Virus record (IMG/VR): IMGVR_UViG_3300016472_000673 | Coordinates: 1 to 62,799 of that record | Strand: one strand, 5' to 3' | DNA from: a virus | Taxonomy: Duplodnaviria > Caudoviricetes | DNA: 62,799 nt | Shown here: in pieces, positions 4,222 through 57,340 of the stretch | How the letters are laid out: every line of letters starts with the position of its first letter | Position numbering within the stretch: position 1 is the stretch's first letter | The notes under the pieces: generated by a model | Database searches by the model: none | What the model saw: only the letters and a program-made list of their open reading frames with translations | What the model was told of the DNA's origin: nothing | Made by a program: the position numbers and the translations under genes

Positions 4222-5835
4222 ATGAGTAAAATAATTAAATTTGATAGGGAAGCAAAAGAAAAACTACAGGACGGTATTAAAAAAGTATATGATGCTGTAA
4301 CTGTAACAATGGGTCCTTTTGGACGTAATGTATTGATTGAGAAAGAACATGGACAAATAGTATCAACTAAAGATGGTGTTAGTGTTTCCAAGACAATTAC
4401 ATTAGAAGATCCAATTGAAAATATGGGTGCTACTGTAATTAAGCAAGCAGCACAAAAAACAGTTGATCAAGCAGGTGATGGCACAACAACATCAACGTTG
4501 TTGGCTTATAATATTGCTAATCAAGCACTTGAAGCAACATCAAAACCATCAGTTAATGTTACTCAAGTAAAGTATGGTATTGAAGCAGCTGTTAAAGCAG
4601 TAATTAATGAATTAAAAGAAATATCAATAGATATTACTGATGAAAAGCAAATTAAACAAATTGCTACATTATCGGCTAATGGTGATGAAGAAATAGGTGA
4701 GCTAGTAGCTACTGCTATTGATAAAGTAGGAAGAGATGGTATTGTAACTGTTGAAGAGTCACGCTCCGGTGAAACATCACTCGAAGTAGTAGAGGGACTT
4801 CAATTTGATCGTGGTTATAAGTCACCATATATGGTGACAGATAACAATACAATGCAATCTGTTCTCAACGATGCTTTGATTTTATTGTATGATGGTCGTT
4901 TAAGTGCTGTAAAAGATCTATTACCTGTACTCGAACGCGTATCACAAGAAAATAAAGCATTACTTATTATTGCTGAAGATATTGATGGTGAAGCACTTTC
5001 AACACTCATTGTAAATAAAATGAGAGGTATATTGAAAGTAGTAGCTGTTAAAGCACCTGACTTTGGTGAACGTAGAACATTAATTTTAGAAGATATTGCT
5101 GTTGTAACTGGTGGTACTGTAATTTCACCTCAAAAAGGTATGAAATTAGAACGCTTTAACATGGAATGGTTCGGTAAAGCAAGAACTATTACTGTAGGTA
5201 AAGATACTACTACTATTGTAGATGGTAAAGGTGAAGCTGAAAAAATTGACGCTCGTGTTGATGAATTAAAGTCTCAAATCGATAATGCAAATTCACCTTA
5301 TGAAGTTGAACGTTTACAAGATCGTTTAGCAAAAATGATTGGTGGTGTAGCTATTATTAATGTAGGTGGAGGTACTGAAGTTGAAATGAAAGAGAGAAAA
5401 GATCGTATTGACGATGCACTTCAAGCAACTAAAGCTGCACTCGAAGAAGGTATTGTAGCTGGTGCTGGTATGGCATTATTCAATAGCAGAAACGCTATTA
5501 GTAATAGAGATAGTAGCGATTTTGGATTAGGAGGTAGAATAGTATTCAAAGCATGTTCTGCTCCGCTTAATAAAATCCTGTCTAATGCTGGTGAAGACTA
5601 TTACGAATGGATTTCAGTTTTAAAAGAAGAAAATGCTGTACCTGATATTATAGGAGAAAGAACAGTTAATGCTTTTAAATCAGGTATTATTGATCCTACT
5701 AAAGTAGTACGCTGTGCTCTTGAAAATGCAGCTGCAGCTGCAGTTACATTGCTAATGACAGAAGCAGTAATACATGACAAACCATCTGAGAAGAAAAAGA
5801 CAGATGATTTTGGGATGGCAAATTTAGAAATGTAA
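4222..5835 (+). CDS. groEL: Chaperonin GroEL
   Basis: GDGTTT, EGLQFDRGY, KAPDFGERR, GIIDPTKV. Confidence 0.98.
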   Translation: MSKIIKFDREAKEKLQDGIKKVYDAVTVTMGPFGRNVLIEKEHGQIVSTKDGVSVSKTITLEDPIENMGATVIKQAAQKTVDQAGDGTTTSTLLAYNIANQALEATSKPSVNVTQVKYGIEAAVKAVINELKEISIDITDEKQIKQIATLSANGDEEIGELVATAIDKVGRDGIVTVEESRSGETSLEVVEGLQFDRGYKSPYMVTDNNTMQSVLNDALILLYDGRLSAVKDLLPVLERVSQENKALLIIAEDIDGEALSTLIVNKMRGILKVVAVKAPDFGERRTLILEDIAVVTGGTVISPQKGMKLERFNMEWFGKARTITVGKDTTTIVDGKGEAEKIDARVDELKSQIDNANSPYEVERLQDRLAKMIGGVAIINVGGGTEVEMKERKDRIDDALQATKAALEEGIVAGAGMALFNSRNAISNRDSSDFGLGGRIVFKACSAPLNKILSNAGEDYYEWISVLKEENAVPDIIGERTVNAFKSGIIDPTKVVRCALENAAAAAVTLLMTEAVIHDKPSEKKKTDDFGMANLEM

Positions 5836-30454: not shown

Positions 30455-30497
30455 AGAGTAGGCAAAATAGATTTTATATATTTAATTTATTAATTAA

Positions 30498-53533: not shown

Positions 53534-54058
53534 TTATTTAGAATTTTTATTTTCATTCTTTTCTATTTCCTCTGCTATTAACACATTAGAAAATATAACA
53601 CCCAGTTCTTCTATCACTCGTTGAGCAGTACCAGAATCAATTCTAAACATTTCCCTATCTTCAGACACACGATATTGACTTAAATGGTCATGTACTCTAG
53701 CTTCCAAAACACGTGAAGCATAACATTTAAGATACCACACCACAAACCACGGTGTTGGAACACCAGTTGCTTTACTTATTTCTTTTGCTCGCTCATGTGG
53801 ATTTTTTATTGTCATACCTATTTTAATCATACCAGGCATCGATTCATTAACTAATATGTAAACATATTCTATAGCTCGTACACCGCCTGAAGAGTCGAGT
53901 ACTGCTTCTTTTAAATAAACTACTCGCTCCCATCCCGACCCACTTGGAAAATCAGGCGACGGAATTCTAGTATGATGTGTCGCATATTTAAATTCAGTAT
54001 TAGTGTCTAATTGCACATAATACTTCATATATTCGAGTTTAACATATTTGGTTGCCAT
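53534..54058 (-). CDS. T5orf172/MUG113-type GIY-YIG protein; start moved to ATG 54058
   Basis: YVYILVN..MIKIGMT..ER..TGVPTP..LE..VH..REMF; minus-strand class I element at 54067-54090. Confidence 0.85.
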   Translation of the reverse strand: MATKYVKLEYMKYYVQLDTNTEFKYATHHTRIPSPDFPSGSGWERVVYLKEAVLDSSGGVRAIEYVYILVNESMPGMIKIGMTIKNPHERAKEISKATGVPTPWFVVWYLKCYASRVLEARVHDHLSQYRVSEDREMFRIDSGTAQRVIEELGVIFSNVLIAEEIEKNENKNSK

Positions 54059-54110
54059 AATTAATTTAAATATATTGAAAATATTTTGCCTCCTTTCAAT
54101 ATTTATTATT

Positions 54111-55106
54111 ATGAAGACATACAAAATAAAATCTGAGGATAAAGCTGCTTTCCTTAATCGTATGGAAAAACTTAAATCTCCCATCGATACTACCCAGATT
54201 AAAGATATACCAATTGATAATGCATTTGAAGTAACAATAGAAGACCCTGAGCAACTATTGTTAGTAAAAAAAGTTTTAAATCAAGCACCAAAAATTGATG
54301 TTTTGAAAGAAAATATATCCTTATTAGAAATAATTAAAGAAGCAGTTGCGGATGATATTAAAAAAGCAGCCGAAGCAAAAGCTATTATAAACTGGATAAA
54401 AGGTAAAATAGAAAATTATACGCAAGATACTAAAGAAATAGAATTTTATGATAAACCATATAATAAAATTATTTTAAATTATAATGGATTAAAAATAAAA
54501 ATATTAGAAGCTATTTCAAAAGATAAAAGCCTAGGAAAGTATGTCCCAGCAACTAATGAATTATTTATATATGATGCTGATATAACAGCTAAAGAAACAG
54601 GAAATTTATTTAAAACAAAATTTAAAATAAGTGCTAAATTTAATGAAAAATCTGTATTTCATGAATTAATACATTATTTTGATGCAACACGTCAGTATAA
54701 AGGAGGAAAAGAAGATTTAGTAAAACAAATTGAAAAAATAAAAAATACAAAAGGAGATAAATGGAAAGCATATGTTAATTTCCCAATGGAAATGAATACC
54801 CATTTTTTTGAAAGAGTATTTCCTGAAATTTTAAAAGATATTGAAAATAATAAACAGTTAGTTGTTAAACCATTTCCTGAATTTTTTAAAGAAATGTTTA
54901 AAGATCAATCATTTAGTGATTTTTATGAATATTTAAATGATAAAAATAAAAGAAAAATTCAAAAACGCTTAGGTACGTTATATCTGGAGTTAAAGAATAA
55001 TCCTGATAAGATAAAAGAACTTTCTAAAGTTAATTTGGATAACATAGAAAATGAAAAGGAAAAAGTAGGTTGGCTCAAAAAGATATGGAATAAATTATCT
55101 TCTTAA
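54111..55106 (+). CDS. Protein with zincin-like HExxH domain; start moved to ATG 54111
   Basis: VFHELIHYFD and downstream YVNFPME; class II element at ~54099. Confidence 0.65.
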   Translation: MKTYKIKSEDKAAFLNRMEKLKSPIDTTQIKDIPIDNAFEVTIEDPEQLLLVKKVLNQAPKIDVLKENISLLEIIKEAVADDIKKAAEAKAIINWIKGKIENYTQDTKEIEFYDKPYNKIILNYNGLKIKILEAISKDKSLGKYVPATNELFIYDADITAKETGNLFKTKFKISAKFNEKSVFHELIHYFDATRQYKGGKEDLVKQIEKIKNTKGDKWKAYVNFPMEMNTHFFERVFPEILKDIENNKQLVVKPFPEFFKEMFKDQSFSDFYEYLNDKNKRKIQKRLGTLYLELKNNPDKIKELSKVNLDNIENEKEKVGWLKKIWNKLSS

Positions 55107-55149
55107 GGAAGGCAAAATTTATTTTATATATTTAAAACAAAAAAAAGCT

Positions 55150-55491
55150 ATGAAAAAGTTTGAAAATTGGCTCAACGTAGTTACATCATTCGGAGCAACT
55201 ATTGTTATTGTTGGTGCTTGGCAAAAACTTACTCATCAATCATCGGCTGATGTATTTTTGACTATTGGATTGTTAACTGAAGCGGTTATTTTTGCTTTGT
55301 ATGGTATTCTCTATATGAGAAACCCAATGGGAACAACAGTAGAAACAACAACTATTGCTAATAATGTTAAAGATGTTAATATTGAAGAAAGTATAAACTT
55401 GAATAAAGAAAAAATGAATACATTGAACAAAAATATTGATGAATTAAATTCTGTTTATACGGGAATGTTGGATGTGATGCGTAAAAAATAA
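55150..55491 (+). CDS. gldL: Shortened GldL/PorL-like membrane protein
   Basis: GATIVIVGAWQKLTH..TIGLLTEAVIF (two TMs) and C-terminal LNSVYTGML. Confidence 0.85.
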   Translation: MKKFENWLNVVTSFGATIVIVGAWQKLTHQSSADVFLTIGLLTEAVIFALYGILYMRNPMGTTVETTTIANNVKDVNIEESINLNKEKMNTLNKNIDELNSVYTGMLDVMRKK

Positions 55492-55512
55492 TTTTAATAC
55501 TTTAAATTAGAG

Positions 55513-55545
55513 AAAGAGCTAACTGTAAAGTTAGCTTTTTTTCTT
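55513..55545 (+). terminator. Intrinsic terminator after the gldL-like gene
   Basis: gagctaact-gtaa-agttagctt plus T-tract. Confidence 0.85.
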
Positions 55546-55658: not shown

Positions 55659-55859
55659 ATGAGATATAAAGCGAACGTAGTAATGCAATTGGAACATATA
55701 GACTCAATTGCAAGCCGTATACAATTCCAAGTAAACAGAGGTTACAATCAAAATCAAATTTTGGAAACTATTGAGATGTTGAAGGAACAAATTGAAAAAA
55801 CTCGTGAAATGGTTTCACTCGAGGACGATGATTTCGCTAAACAATTTTCTGGATTATGA
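55659..55859 (+). CDS. Hypothetical protein; start moved to ATG 55659
   Basis: Class II element at ~55635. Confidence 0.6.
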   Translation: MRYKANVVMQLEHIDSIASRIQFQVNRGYNQNQILETIEMLKEQIEKTREMVSLEDDDFAKQFSGL

Positions 55860-56143
55860 TTTGGTGGCAAATATTACTTTGGGTGGTTGGAATCCACGTT
55901 GTTGAAGTTGTAGGCGTACTTATATTCTTATTAATGAGACGAAATGGTGCTTTAGAAAAAGCACTTGCTGAACAACAACAATATATTGATGCTATTTCAA
56001 TAGTAATTGAAAACTCTGATCAACAATTAAAAGAATTAGATAGAATGGGTGCTTTTGAAGCTGATGATGAAGTAGGAACTTTCTTTAGAAATTTAAAAGA
56101 AATTCAAAACCTTATCAATCAGTTTAAAACAAATCAAAAATAA
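55856..56143 (+). CDS. Membrane-anchored conserved phage protein
   Basis: N-terminal TM; GAFEADDEVGTFF. Confidence 0.7.
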   Translation: MIWWQILLWVVGIHVVEVVGVLIFLLMRRNGALEKALAEQQQYIDAISIVIENSDQQLKELDRMGAFEADDEVGTFFRNLKEIQNLINQFKTNQK

Positions 56144-56956: not shown

Positions 56957-57340
56957 ATGTCGAATTTCGATAATGTTACTTTATTTGGGAATACATCGTT
57001 ATCTGATTTATTTAAACAAATACATAAGAATAATAAAGATATTGATAAACAAATTGGAGAATTTATTGATACTTTAAAACCTATGGCATCTTCTAATGCT
57101 GGTTCTGCAGTAATGCTTATGCCTACTGTTAAAGATTTAATTGATGTTAATGTAAAAAATAATGAACAATTAATTAAAATGGCAGCTATTGCTCAAAGAG
57201 CAGCTAGTGTTAATGCATCTAATGGAACTGAGTTAATTAATATGGATGAAATTAATGCATTATTAGAAGAACAAAAAGAAATACAAGAGCAAGGTCAAAA
57301 ACTATTAGAACAAACTCCATCTTATAAATTAGAAAAATGA
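56957..57340 (+). CDS. Helical hypothetical protein
   Basis: Class II element upstream; lies between sigma and baseplate genes. Confidence 0.65.
   Translation: MSNFDNVTLFGNTSLSDLFKQIHKNNKDIDKQIGEFIDTLKPMASSNAGSAVMLMPTVKDLIDVNVKNNEQLIKMAAIAQRAASVNASNGTELINMDEINALLEEQKEIQEQGQKLLEQTPSYKLEK

What the first reader, a model, noticed from the sequence alone, without database searches (positions are those of the whole stretch)
55111..55545. Stand-alone phage mini-GldL: candidate inhibitor of the host T9SS/gliding motor
Seen: a 113-aa gene with its own class I element (~55111) and terminator. It has two TM segments (GATIVIVGAWQKLTH, TIGLLTEAVIF) and a tail LNSVYTGMLDVM, joined by only a short linker. 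Known: GldL/PorL forms the proton-driven GldL5M2 motor of type IX secretion and gliding, the TM2 glutamate in GLLTEA is essential, and the chain ends in a conserved LNxVYGGML motif after a long cytoplasmic region. Here both conserved ends are kept, most of the cytoplasmic domain is missing, the second glutamate after TM2 is absent, and no gldK/M/N is in the window. Inference: it co-assembles with host GldL/GldM and jams or uncouples the motor. That could stop gliding or remove T9SS-dependent receptors (superinfection exclusion).
Basis: partly seen in the sequence, partly recalled or inferred. Interest (0 to 1): 0.9.

Follow-up and report, generated by a model that had tools for sequence, protein, structure and literature searches.

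The report
Phage-borne truncated GldL motor subunit
A freshwater phage carries a stand-alone, shortened copy of GldL, the stator protein of the motor that powers gliding and type IX secretion in Bacteroidota, and it most likely interferes with the host's motor.

Summary
ORF 55150-55491 (113 aa) has a repeated promoter-like element upstream and a hairpin terminator downstream. It is a truncated GldL. The two-helix membrane hairpin matches Pfam GldL_N (E 1e-16) and keeps K26, H29 and E44, which correspond to F. johnsoniae K27, H30 and E49. After about 20 disordered residues comes a helix that matches the GldL C-terminal LNSVYGGML helix. About 110 cytoplasmic residues are missing.

The gene is under purifying selection (dN/dS 0.17 hairpin, 0.74 linker, 0.04 C-helix; one pair). 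No gldK, gldM or gldN was found in the window.

Stand-alone shortened GldL genes of 95-186 aa also occur in 18 further viral loci from several phage contexts. None of the 10 viral records searched holds GldM. The bacterial GldLs I checked, including two short ones of 161 and 164 aa, sit beside gldM.

The inhibitor reading (poison or decoy stator subunit, possibly for superinfection exclusion) is the best-supported inference, but it is untested. The complex prediction gave no verdict. My literature searches found no report of a phage-encoded GldL or PorL. An earlier-findings look-up by sequence showed no prior note on other DNA.

The parts
55110..55133 (+).
   Evidence: Exact site, with a second copy (2 mismatches) at 30460; expected 0.01. 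A looser regex gives 9 copies, most 20-30 nt upstream of small-gene ATGs. Promoter function is inferred, not shown.
55150..55491 (+). Mini-GldL coding sequence, 113 aa plus stop
   Evidence: ORF list; Pfam GldL_N E 1e-16; TIGR03513 at 56.9 bits, below its 68.3 cut-off, in 2 stretches; PDB GldL/PorL hits; 8 full-length orthologues at 73-98% identity.
55153..55230 (+). TM helix 1 (residues 2-27), with K26 and nearby H29, which correspond to F. johnsoniae K27 and H30
   Evidence: AF2 helix 2-27, pLDDT about 90. K26 and H29 are invariant in 28 diverse mini-GldLs. Alignment to 6YS8 GldL.
55246..55320 (+). TM helix 2 (residues 33-57) with GLLTEA. E44 (codon 55279-55281) corresponds to the essential E49 of F. 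johnsoniae GldL
   Evidence: AF2 helix 33-57; E44 invariant; aligned to E49.
55321..55380 (+). Variable, probably disordered linker (residues 58-77). It replaces about 110 residues of the GldL cytoplasmic region, including the 'cage' segment
   Evidence: pLDDT <50 for 63-77; variable among orthologues; dN/dS 0.74.
55381..55485 (+). C-terminal amphipathic helix (residues 78-112), with a heptad pattern read by eye, ending in LNSVYTGMLDVM. It matches the terminal helix of GldL
   Evidence: Profile match to F. johnsoniae GldL 170-214 at 23.6 bits. BLASTP 44-54% identity to the last 27-40 residues of about 210-aa GldLs. dN/dS 0.04. AF2 helix 78-112.
55509..55544 (+). Intrinsic-terminator-like hairpin followed by a T-run
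   Evidence: Consensus scan: 16-pair stem, then TTTTCTTTCC; 2 sites found against 0.1 expected.

Best explanation
The gene is a phage accessory gene with its own promoter-like element and terminator. It sits in a variable spot between the small-gene region and the baseplate module. It encodes a trimmed GldL: the inner-membrane hairpin that in cellular GldL builds the pentameric ring around the GldM dimer, joined by a roughly 20-residue floppy linker to the last helix of the GldL tail.

Shown: homology of both ends, retention of K27, H30 and E49 equivalents, loss of about 110 cytoplasmic residues, purifying selection on both ends, no gldM in the viral records searched, and recurrence in several phage contexts.

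Inferred: after infection the protein inserts into the host inner membrane with both termini in the cytoplasm. It then either mixes into host GldL pentamers or forms its own ring around host GldM, whose N-terminal TM helix is nearly invariant across the phylum. The long tail is thought to hold GldL still against an unidentified cytoplasmic structure. Without it, such stators would free-wheel or stall, so type IX secretion and adhesin movement would stop.

The likely benefit is loss or immobilisation of T9SS-dependent surface receptors. That would give superinfection exclusion and less wasted adsorption of progeny.
For: The evidence is in five groups.

1. GldL identity. Pfam GldL_N reaches 61.3 bits against a 24-bit cut-off. 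hhalign of the mini profile against a full-length GldL profile gives probability 99.8%. The PDB profile search hits GldL/PorL chains 6ys8, 7sau, 7sax, 7sat and 7saz, with separate N- and C-terminal matches.

2. The motor residues are kept. The invariant columns over 28 mini-GldLs that are only 27-44% identical to the window protein (apart from two close orthologues) are A16, V19, K26, H29, G40, E44 and F48. In F. johnsoniae, K27, H30 and E49 are functionally important, with E49 pairing with GldM R9 (bioRxiv 10.1101/2020.05.11.089193, section 5 read; PMC8986121, passages read).

3. Selection. dN/dS between the window and L002 is 0.17 for the hairpin, 0.74 for the linker and 0.04 for the C-helix. 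Eight full-length orthologues keep both ends and vary the linker.

4. Stand-alone status is specific to viruses in the samples I could check. Twenty-one GldL-like ORFs lie in 21 viral sources (249 kb) with no GldM, apart from the 15.7-bit match noted under evidence against. None of 10 viral records has Pfam GldM_1st, and one of them is 93% complete. By contrast, 59 of 79 metagenome GldL loci have GldM directly downstream, and the other 20 are cut within 1.3 kb. The two short bacterial GldLs (161 and 164 aa) lie beside GldM. GldM residues 7-17 (PRQKMINxMYL) are nearly invariant in 22 genomes.

5. Biological rationale. The GldL tail is proposed to anchor the stator (bioRxiv 10.1101/2020.05.11.089193, discussion passage; PMC9389320, passage). 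Phage-resistant F. psychrophilum isolates carry gldK, gldL, gldM and sprA mutations (PMC9804748, passages).
Against: No interaction or phenotype was shown.

The missing 'cage' may matter little. Its deletion in F. johnsoniae gives only a small gliding defect (bioRxiv 10.1101/2022.01.28.478170, passage). The effect of deleting the rest of the tail is not in the texts I could read, so a trimmed GldL could still be partly functional.

The strongest constraint is on the C-terminal helix rather than on the hairpin. That points at least as much to a cytoplasmic partner as to GldM.

In one viral group the GldL-like gene lies directly upstream of a holin, which suggests a lysis-linked role there.

The host is not identified, and the record is only about 38% complete, so a gldM elsewhere in this phage is not excluded.

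An in-house GldM profile gave a weak 15.7-bit match to ORF 56957-57340. Pfam does not confirm it.
Confidence: 0.5

Rival explanations
1. Decoy for a cytoplasmic partner. The membrane hairpin serves mainly as an anchor, and the conserved terminal helix titrates whatever binds the GldL C-terminus. That partner could be the unidentified static anchor of the stator, or a regulator such as the CheY-like PorX. The result would be that host motors are detached or deregulated.
For: The C-helix has the lowest dN/dS, 0.04 against 0.17 for the hairpin. It is the one part of the tail that all viral forms keep. P. gingivalis PorX binding needs a hydrophobic patch near the PorL C-terminus, residues 279-298 (PMC5005315, passage). 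Phosphorylated PorX of F. johnsoniae binds the GldL cytoplasmic domain (PMC10951265, passages).
Against: The F. johnsoniae two-hybrid construct GldLC is given as residues 59-189 (PMC8986121, figure legend). That lacks the last 26 residues, so PorX binding there does not need the terminal motif. A mere anchor would not need invariant K26, H29 and E44. The PorL patch sequence is not the LNxVYGGML motif.
Confidence: 0.17
2. Working minimal stator. The phage supplies a streamlined GldL that forms active GldL5GldM2 motors, free of host regulation. These would keep type IX secretion running during infection, for example after host gene shut-off.
For: All residues known to be needed in the membrane core are kept. 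Replacing or deleting the cage has no effect or only a small effect in F. johnsoniae (bioRxiv 10.1101/2022.01.28.478170, passage). Bacterial gldKLMN-like operons with GldLs as short as 161-164 aa exist. Phage genes with T9SS sorting domains have been reported in other phages (PMC7468147, passage).
Against: No T9SS C-terminal sorting domain (PF18962) was found in the window. A 20-residue linker cannot span what a tail of about 150 residues spans. The shortest operon-borne bacterial forms seen are still about 50 residues longer.
Confidence: 0.13
3. Membrane-energetics or lysis-timing protein. A GldL-type ring without a proper axle or anchor lets protons through. This would lower the proton-motive force to time holin triggering or to shut down host transport.
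For: In the 141-146-aa viral group (10 loci) the gene lies directly upstream of a holin (phrog_3427, E 9e-28) and near the large terminase. A buried, invariant Glu in TM2 is what a proton path needs.
Against: In this window the gene is not in a lysis cassette. None of the 10 neighbouring proteins scanned matched a holin or endolysin family, and the protein itself has no PHROG holin match (best E 0.054, unknown function). The very strong constraint on a cytoplasmic helix is not explained. That 5:2 pentamers alone are not known to leak is recalled knowledge, not tested here.
Confidence: 0.12
4. Decaying fragment of a captured host gene with no function.
For: It lies in a variable region next to a T5orf172 (homing-endonuclease-like) gene.
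Against: The frame is intact with its own promoter-like element and terminator. Eight full-length orthologues down to 73% identity all keep both ends. dN/dS is 0.21 overall.
Confidence: 0.03

Closest known systems
GldL/PorL, stator subunit of the GldL5GldM2 (PorLM) proton-driven motor of type IX secretion and gliding (F. johnsoniae GldL, PDB 6YS8; 7SAU, 7SAX, 7SAT, 7SAZ)
   Same: Two-helix membrane hairpin with the KxxH and GLxTE motifs (K27, H30, E49) and the terminal LNxVYGGML helix.
   Different: 113 aa instead of the 204-261 aa of the full-length forms examined here (open frames in the wider genome sample run to about 400 aa). About 110 residues of tail are missing, including the cage segment and the internal LNxLY helices. 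It is below the TIGR03513 equivalog cut-off, is encoded by a phage, and has no gldK/M/N beside it.
Short GldL paralogues (161 and 164 aa) in second gldKLMN-like operons of some Bacteroidota genomes (loci L108, L109)
   Same: Shortened tail, with the Glu in TM2 and the terminal helix conserved.
   Different: They sit next to a GldM gene, and in L108 also next to GldK-type and GldN genes. They are about 50 residues longer and are chromosomal.
Other viral stand-alone GldL-like genes found here: 95-116 aa (L006, L009), 141-146 aa (L010-L018, L020), 175-186 aa (L019, L021-L025)
   Same: Hairpin plus terminal helix, with no GldM in the record, in phage gene contexts.
   Different: Only 25-54% identical to the window protein over partial lengths. 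They have different neighbours: tail sheath and capsid, holin and terminase, or primase and helicase. The longer groups are nearer to the roughly 210-aa Flavobacteriia-type GldL, while the window's protein is nearer to the Chitinophagaceae type. This suggests at least two separate captures.
Phage proteins that disable a host motility organelle that also serves as a receptor, such as Tip of phage D3112 and Aqs1 of DMS3 against the Pseudomonas type IV pilus (recalled, not looked up here)
   Same: A small accessory phage protein proposed to switch off a surface machine on which phage adsorption depends, giving superinfection exclusion.
   Different: As recalled, those proteins are not mimics of a machine subunit. 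They bind the PilB ATPase. Here the phage protein is a trimmed homologue of the stator subunit itself, and the function is not demonstrated.

Membership tests
GldL/PorL (T9SS/gliding motor stator) | N-terminal two-TMH domain matching GldL_N (PF22827) above the gathering score | tested here: met
   61.3 bits against a 24-bit cut-off, E 1e-16, residues 12-54; 62 bits in the six-frame search.
GldL/PorL (T9SS/gliding motor stator) | Invariant Glu in TMH2 (F. johnsoniae E49) and the periplasmic-end K27 and H30 | tested here: met
   E44, K26 and H29 align to E49, K27 and H30. They are invariant in 28 mini-GldLs and in 25 full-length GldLs.
GldL/PorL (T9SS/gliding motor stator) | Whole-protein equivalog score (TIGR03513, cut-off 68.3 bits) | tested here: not met
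   56.9 bits, in two separate stretches.
GldL/PorL (T9SS/gliding motor stator) | Long cytoplasmic region of about 150 residues, including the membrane-proximal cage | tested here: not met
   Only a linker of about 20 residues lies between TMH2 and the last helix. The DWxxVYPEL cage motif is absent.
GldL/PorL (T9SS/gliding motor stator) | Conserved C-terminal helix LNxVYGGMLxAM | tested here: met
   LNSVYTGMLDVM. Profile match to GldL 170-214. 44-54% identity to the C-termini of 20 GldLs of about 210 aa. GldL also has internal LNxxY repeats, and the terminal one is the best match.
GldL/PorL (T9SS/gliding motor stator) | Encoded in a gldKLMN/porKLMN cluster, directly upstream of gldM | tested here: not met
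   No GldM_1st, GldN or FGE-sulfatase match in the window. The downstream genes are unrelated small ORFs.
GldL/PorL (T9SS/gliding motor stator) | Assembles as a pentamer around a GldM dimer | tested here: inconclusive
   One complex prediction (4 mini-GldL plus 2 GldM 1-225) returned 'no answer'. It is neither support nor evidence against. A 5:2 job exceeds the tool's chain limit.
Holin / lysis-cassette membrane protein | Match to a holin family and position beside an endolysin or spanin | tested here: not met
   No PHROG holin match (best PHROG E 0.054, unknown function). The 10 neighbours scanned show no lysis family. In another viral group the GldL-like gene does precede a holin.
Phage superinfection-exclusion proteins acting on host motility or receptor machines | Expression blocks the host machine and the adsorption of other phages | not testable with these tools
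   Needs expression in a gliding host. Only the rationale is available: T9SS mutants are phage resistant (PMC9804748, passages).

The most novel reading that the evidence does not exclude
Phages of Bacteroidota have captured the stator gene gldL more than once and trimmed it to its two interaction modules, the ring-forming hairpin and the terminal tail helix. The product is a stand-alone poison or decoy subunit that shuts down the host's type IX secretion and gliding motor. This would be the first virus-encoded mimic of a subunit of a 5:2 ion-driven rotary motor. The ultra-conserved terminal helix would mark the still unknown site where the stator is anchored or regulated.
Probability: 0.4. 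Interest if true: 0.85.

Novelty: new variant of a known kind. Interest (0 to 1): 0.72.

Why it matters
GldLM is one of the few ion-driven rotary motors known. How its stator is held still, and what its long cytoplasmic tail does, are open questions. In the texts read here the anchor is described as unidentified (PMC9389320; bioRxiv 10.1101/2020.05.11.089193).

A natural, selected minimal GldL shows which parts evolution keeps when the rest is discarded: the hairpin with K27, H30 and E49, and the last helix.

If the protein is a dominant-negative subunit, three things follow.
- It would be a genetically encoded off-switch for type IX secretion and gliding.
- It would be a new kind of phage takeover or superinfection-exclusion device, in a phylum where phage resistance commonly arises through T9SS mutations.
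- It would be a handle for fishing out the partner of the GldL C-terminus.

Its recurrence in several phage contexts suggests a general strategy rather than an oddity.

Tried and rejected
Complex prediction. Four mini-GldL copies plus two copies of GldM 1-225 from locus L104 scored 0.27 against a mark of 0.32, and the verdict was 'no answer'. A native 5:2 assembly exceeds the six-chain limit. I do not use this result as evidence either way.

Fold of a full-length GldL, alignment A7. Mean pLDDT was 54.6, too low to say how the terminal helix packs, so I did not use it.

Metagenome scan with alignment A4. It returned only full-length GldLs of about 250-290 aa, apart from two ORFs cut at contig ends, and no new mini-GldL contexts. 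It was useful only as a control for gldL-gldM adjacency.

Cluster look-up of 10 distant mini-GldLs. Almost all are singletons on contigs of 1-17 kb with no useful names, so whether those distant forms are viral or cellular stays open.

Sequencing-run search. No RNA holder was listed, so nothing can be said about expression. The DNA holders are freshwater or lake metagenomes.

tblastn of three viral GldL-like proteins against 50,697 phage records. The only hit was one unannotated 10.5-kb 'Bacteriophage sp.' record. I did not examine it further, and it may be bacterial DNA.

PorX-decoy idea. I considered it and down-weighted it because the F. johnsoniae GldLC construct is given as residues 59-189 (PMC8986121).

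Y13 of F. johnsoniae GldL corresponds to T12 here. I considered this as a sign of an inactive subunit and rejected it, because Chitinophagaceae-type full-length GldLs have Val there.

C-terminal truncation instead of internal deletion. BLAST also aligns the protein collinearly with the first 116 residues of a Chitinophagaceae GldL. However, the helix matches the terminal LNSVYGNML repeat better than the first repeat. Internal deletion is favoured, but the alternative is not excluded.

Weak in-house GldM-profile match to ORF 56957-57340 (15.7 bits). I treat it as chance similarity between polar helices, since Pfam gives nothing.

Literature searches for a phage-encoded GldL or PorL found none: 'GldL'+'phage' (49 papers, 20 listed); 'phage-encoded'+'gliding motility'+'type IX secretion'; 'gliding motility'+'superinfection exclusion'; 'GldL'+'auxiliary metabolic' (0 papers); 'PorL'+'bacteriophage'. 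Two apparent hits in that last search were the words 'porlymorphic' and 'Porlamar'. The published Nature Microbiology version of the GldLM structure paper is not held, and supplements are closed. Any GldL tail-truncation data there could bear on the 'working minimal stator' rival.
Full report
What is there. The window is a 62.8-kb viral record that CheckV estimates at about 38% of a genome. Its GC content is 28.5%. Nearly all genes lie on the + strand. ORF 55150-55491 encodes 113 residues. Seventeen bases upstream of the ATG ends a 24-base element (55110-55133). It recurs in looser form at 8 other places, mostly 20-30 nt before the start codons of small genes and once before a tRNA-like sequence. 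The leader before the ATG is A-rich. Eighteen bases after the stop codon begins a 16-pair hairpin followed by a T-run.

What the protein is. Pfam GldL_N matches residues 12-54 at 61.3 bits against a 24-bit cut-off. The NCBIfam equivalog for PorL/GldL matches in two stretches but stays below its cut-off, 56.9 against 68.3 bits. A profile of the orthologues hits the five solved GldL/PorL chains. The N-terminus aligns to F. johnsoniae GldL residues 8-58 and the C-terminus to residues 170-214, which end in LNSVYGGMLSAM. hhalign of the mini profile against a full-length GldL profile gives 99.8% probability for the hairpin. AlphaFold2 with a 28-row alignment predicts helices 2-27 and 33-57 at pLDDT about 90, a low-confidence linker 58-77 (pLDDT <50 for 63-77), and helix 78-112 at pLDDT 61-78. 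Read by eye, the hydrophobic positions of the last helix (I82, M89, I96, Y103, M110 and L92, L99, M106) follow a heptad pattern. So the protein is the GldL hairpin joined by a short tether to the last helix of the GldL tail, and about 110 residues of the cytoplasmic region are missing.

GldL tails contain repeated LNxxY helices. The phage helix matches the terminal repeat best, which favours an internal deletion. A derivation by C-terminal truncation after the first repeat cannot be fully excluded.

Functional residues. Mutagenesis in F. johnsoniae found Y13, K27, H30 and E49 of GldL to be important. E49 is invariant and pairs with GldM R9 (bioRxiv 10.1101/2020.05.11.089193, section 5 read). 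E59 is needed for gliding but not for secretion (PMC8986121, passage). The phage protein has K26, H29 and E44 at the K27, H30 and E49 positions. In an alignment of 28 mini-GldLs, most only 27-44% identical to it, the only invariant columns are A16, V19, K26, H29, G40, E44 and F48. Y13 is T12 here and E59 is absent. However, Chitinophagaceae-type full-length GldLs also lack both at those columns, so neither change is informative.

Selection and relatives. The word-indexed search found 8 full-length orthologues (112-116 aa, 73-98% identity) and one 78-aa piece. Two IMG/VR contigs carry the gene in the same gene order: T5orf172 gene on the minus strand, a 351-aa gene, mini-GldL, then genes of 76, 95 and 256 aa followed by the baseplate module. 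The orthologues keep both ends and vary the linker. For the single pair with DNA available (window and L002), dN/dS is 0.21 overall, 0.17 in the hairpin, 0.74 in the linker and 0.04 in the C-helix, with dS 0.65.

The exhaustive profile search of 1.84 billion representatives found 865 proteins at E<=1e-3. Of the best 150, 71 are 130 aa or shorter. Of those, 17 align end to end with the mini profile. The other 54 align only with the N-terminal part, so they are either fragments or minis with divergent tails. A cluster look-up showed mostly singletons on short contigs.

Viral against cellular context. A scan of IMG/VR with one mini-GldL subgroup gave 20 loci, two of which are the contigs already found. 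The other 18 encode stand-alone GldL-like proteins in three length groups. All keep the Glu-bearing hairpin and a terminal helix.
- About 95-116 aa: L006, beside tail sheath and capsid genes, and L009.
- 141-146 aa: L010-L018 and L020, directly upstream of a holin and near the large terminase.
- 175-186 aa: L019 and L021-L025, beside exonuclease, primase and helicase genes.
Neighbours were annotated for L006, L009, L017 and L023 only.

No GldM was found in these 21 viral sources (249 kb) with an in-house profile, apart from one weak 15.7-bit match that Pfam does not confirm. With Pfam GldM_1st, none of the 10 whole viral records searched has a match, and one of those is 93% complete.

In cellular DNA the picture differs.
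- 80 named genome loci, almost all Chitinophagaceae, hold GldLs of 250-261 aa where the gene is complete.
- 59 of 79 metagenome GldL loci have GldM immediately downstream. The other 20 are cut by the contig end within 1.3 kb.
- In a sample of 401 genomes of the phylum, 101 have a GldL_N match, usually one, in an open frame of about 200-400 aa.
- I examined ten second matches. Two are short GldLs (161 and 164 aa) lying next to GldM, one of them also next to GldK-type and GldN genes. One is a 64-aa hairpin-only ORF with the Glu, whose context I did not examine. Seven are other small membrane proteins without the Glu.
So in the samples I could inspect, stand-alone trimmed GldLs occur in viral DNA only.

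Origin and host. The phage chaperonin is 57% identical to that of Flavobacterium phage vB_FspM_immuto, genus Immutovirus. The region around the finding is syntenic with that phage: small genes, a T5orf172 gene, variable genes, a homologue of the 260-aa gene, then the baseplate. Immutovirus has other genes where the mini-GldL sits and no GldL-like sequence. The DNA occurs in freshwater metagenomes.

The hairpin of the window protein is closer to Chitinophagaceae-type GldL (55-60% identity, about 80 bits for the whole protein) than to about 210-aa Flavobacteriia-type GldLs (about 46 bits). The 141-186-aa viral groups show the reverse. This suggests at least two independent captures and leaves the host of this phage open within the Bacteroidota. 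The panel of full-length GldLs was small and partly chosen by similarity to a mini-GldL, so I make no claim of a chimeric origin.

Mechanism. Cellular GldL forms a pentameric ring of ten helices around the two GldM helices. GldM is thought to rotate. GldL must therefore be held still, probably through its long, structurally unresolved cytoplasmic tail bound to an unidentified static structure (bioRxiv 10.1101/2020.05.11.089193, passages; PMC9389320, passage). The phage protein keeps everything needed to enter such a ring and to face GldM R9, and GldM's TM helix is almost invariant across the phylum. It also keeps the last tail helix on a tether far too short to reach where that helix normally sits.

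The reading I favour (about 0.5) is that it poisons or replaces host stator rings, producing motors that cannot deliver torque. Secretion of new surface proteins and adhesin movement would then stop. Mutations in gldK, gldL, gldM and sprA make F. psychrophilum phage resistant, and gliding adhesins are thought to be phage receptors (PMC9804748, passages; PMC13288928, passage). Switching the motor off would therefore plausibly protect the infected cell from other phages and spare progeny from adsorbing to doomed cells.

The rivals are listed separately with their evidence: a decoy for a cytoplasmic partner of the terminal helix, a working minimal stator, a proton-leak or lysis-timing protein, and a dead fragment. 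The one complex prediction allowed returned no verdict and I do not count it.

Novelty. The family is known. A virus-borne, stand-alone, trimmed member is not described in the searchable library (with false positives checked). No cultured-phage record in the collection carries one. An earlier-findings look-up by sequence returned no note on similar DNA elsewhere. I class it as a new variant of a known kind, with a substantial chance of being a new type of phage takeover device.

Limits. No experiment was done. One tool for gene context was closed. Supplements and the published version of the key structure paper could not be read. The host is unknown and the phage genome is incomplete.

Noticed in passing
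L010-L018 and L020 (e.g. L017:5977-6411, holin at L017:6414-6815): A 141-146-aa viral GldL-like gene lies immediately upstream of a holin (phrog_3427, GTA_holin_3TM) and a few genes before the large terminase (neighbours annotated for L017; the same gene layout is seen in L011, L018 and L020). This may be a lysis-linked use of a stator fragment.
   Followed up: partly
L019, L021-L025 (e.g. L023:5086-5613): Viral GldL-like proteins of 175-186 aa keep the Flavobacteriia-type cage motif (DWxRVFPELDD). In L023 the gene sits between a PD-(D/E)XK exonuclease and a primase/helicase, with no GldM in the record.
   Followed up: partly
L108 (G085:C1 around 531 kb) and L109 (G349:C7 around 190 kb): Some Bacteroidota genomes hold a second gldL-gldM pair with a short GldL of 161-164 aa, in addition to the main GldL. 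In L108 it is a full gldKLMN-like set.
   Followed up: partly
L110, L111, L112, L115 (bacterial loci); L116:8428-8622: There is a separate family of small bacterial membrane proteins (70-145 aa, ending ...GRRRV) with a GldL_N-like first hairpin but no TM2 glutamate. One 64-aa hairpin-only ORF (L116) does keep the Glu.
   Followed up: no
window 56957-57340: A 127-aa protein gives a weak match (15.7 bits) to the D1 region of an in-house GldM profile. Pfam shows nothing, so this is probably chance similarity between polar helices.
   Followed up: partly
window 55856-56143: A 95-aa protein has one TM helix carrying His and Glu (IWWQILLWVVGIHVVEVVGVLIFLLM), followed by a coiled-coil-like tail. It is conserved in L002 and L003, two genes downstream of the mini-GldL, and matches no family.
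   Followed up: no
window 53534-54184 (minus strand): A T5orf172/MUG113-domain gene lies on the opposite strand, overlapping the annotated start of the 352-aa gene. It is conserved in L002 and L003, and a T5orf172 gene sits at the syntenic place in Immutovirus.
   Followed up: partly
window 4222-5835: A phage-encoded GroEL-type chaperonin is 57% identical to that of Flavobacterium phage vB_FspM_immuto. Related genes occur in Bacteroides, Vibrio and other large phages.
   Followed up: partly
L104, L035, L134 (full-length GldLs): The GldL cytoplasmic tail contains two or three repeats of an LxxNLxSLNxxY helix motif. The terminal copy is the most conserved.
   Followed up: partly
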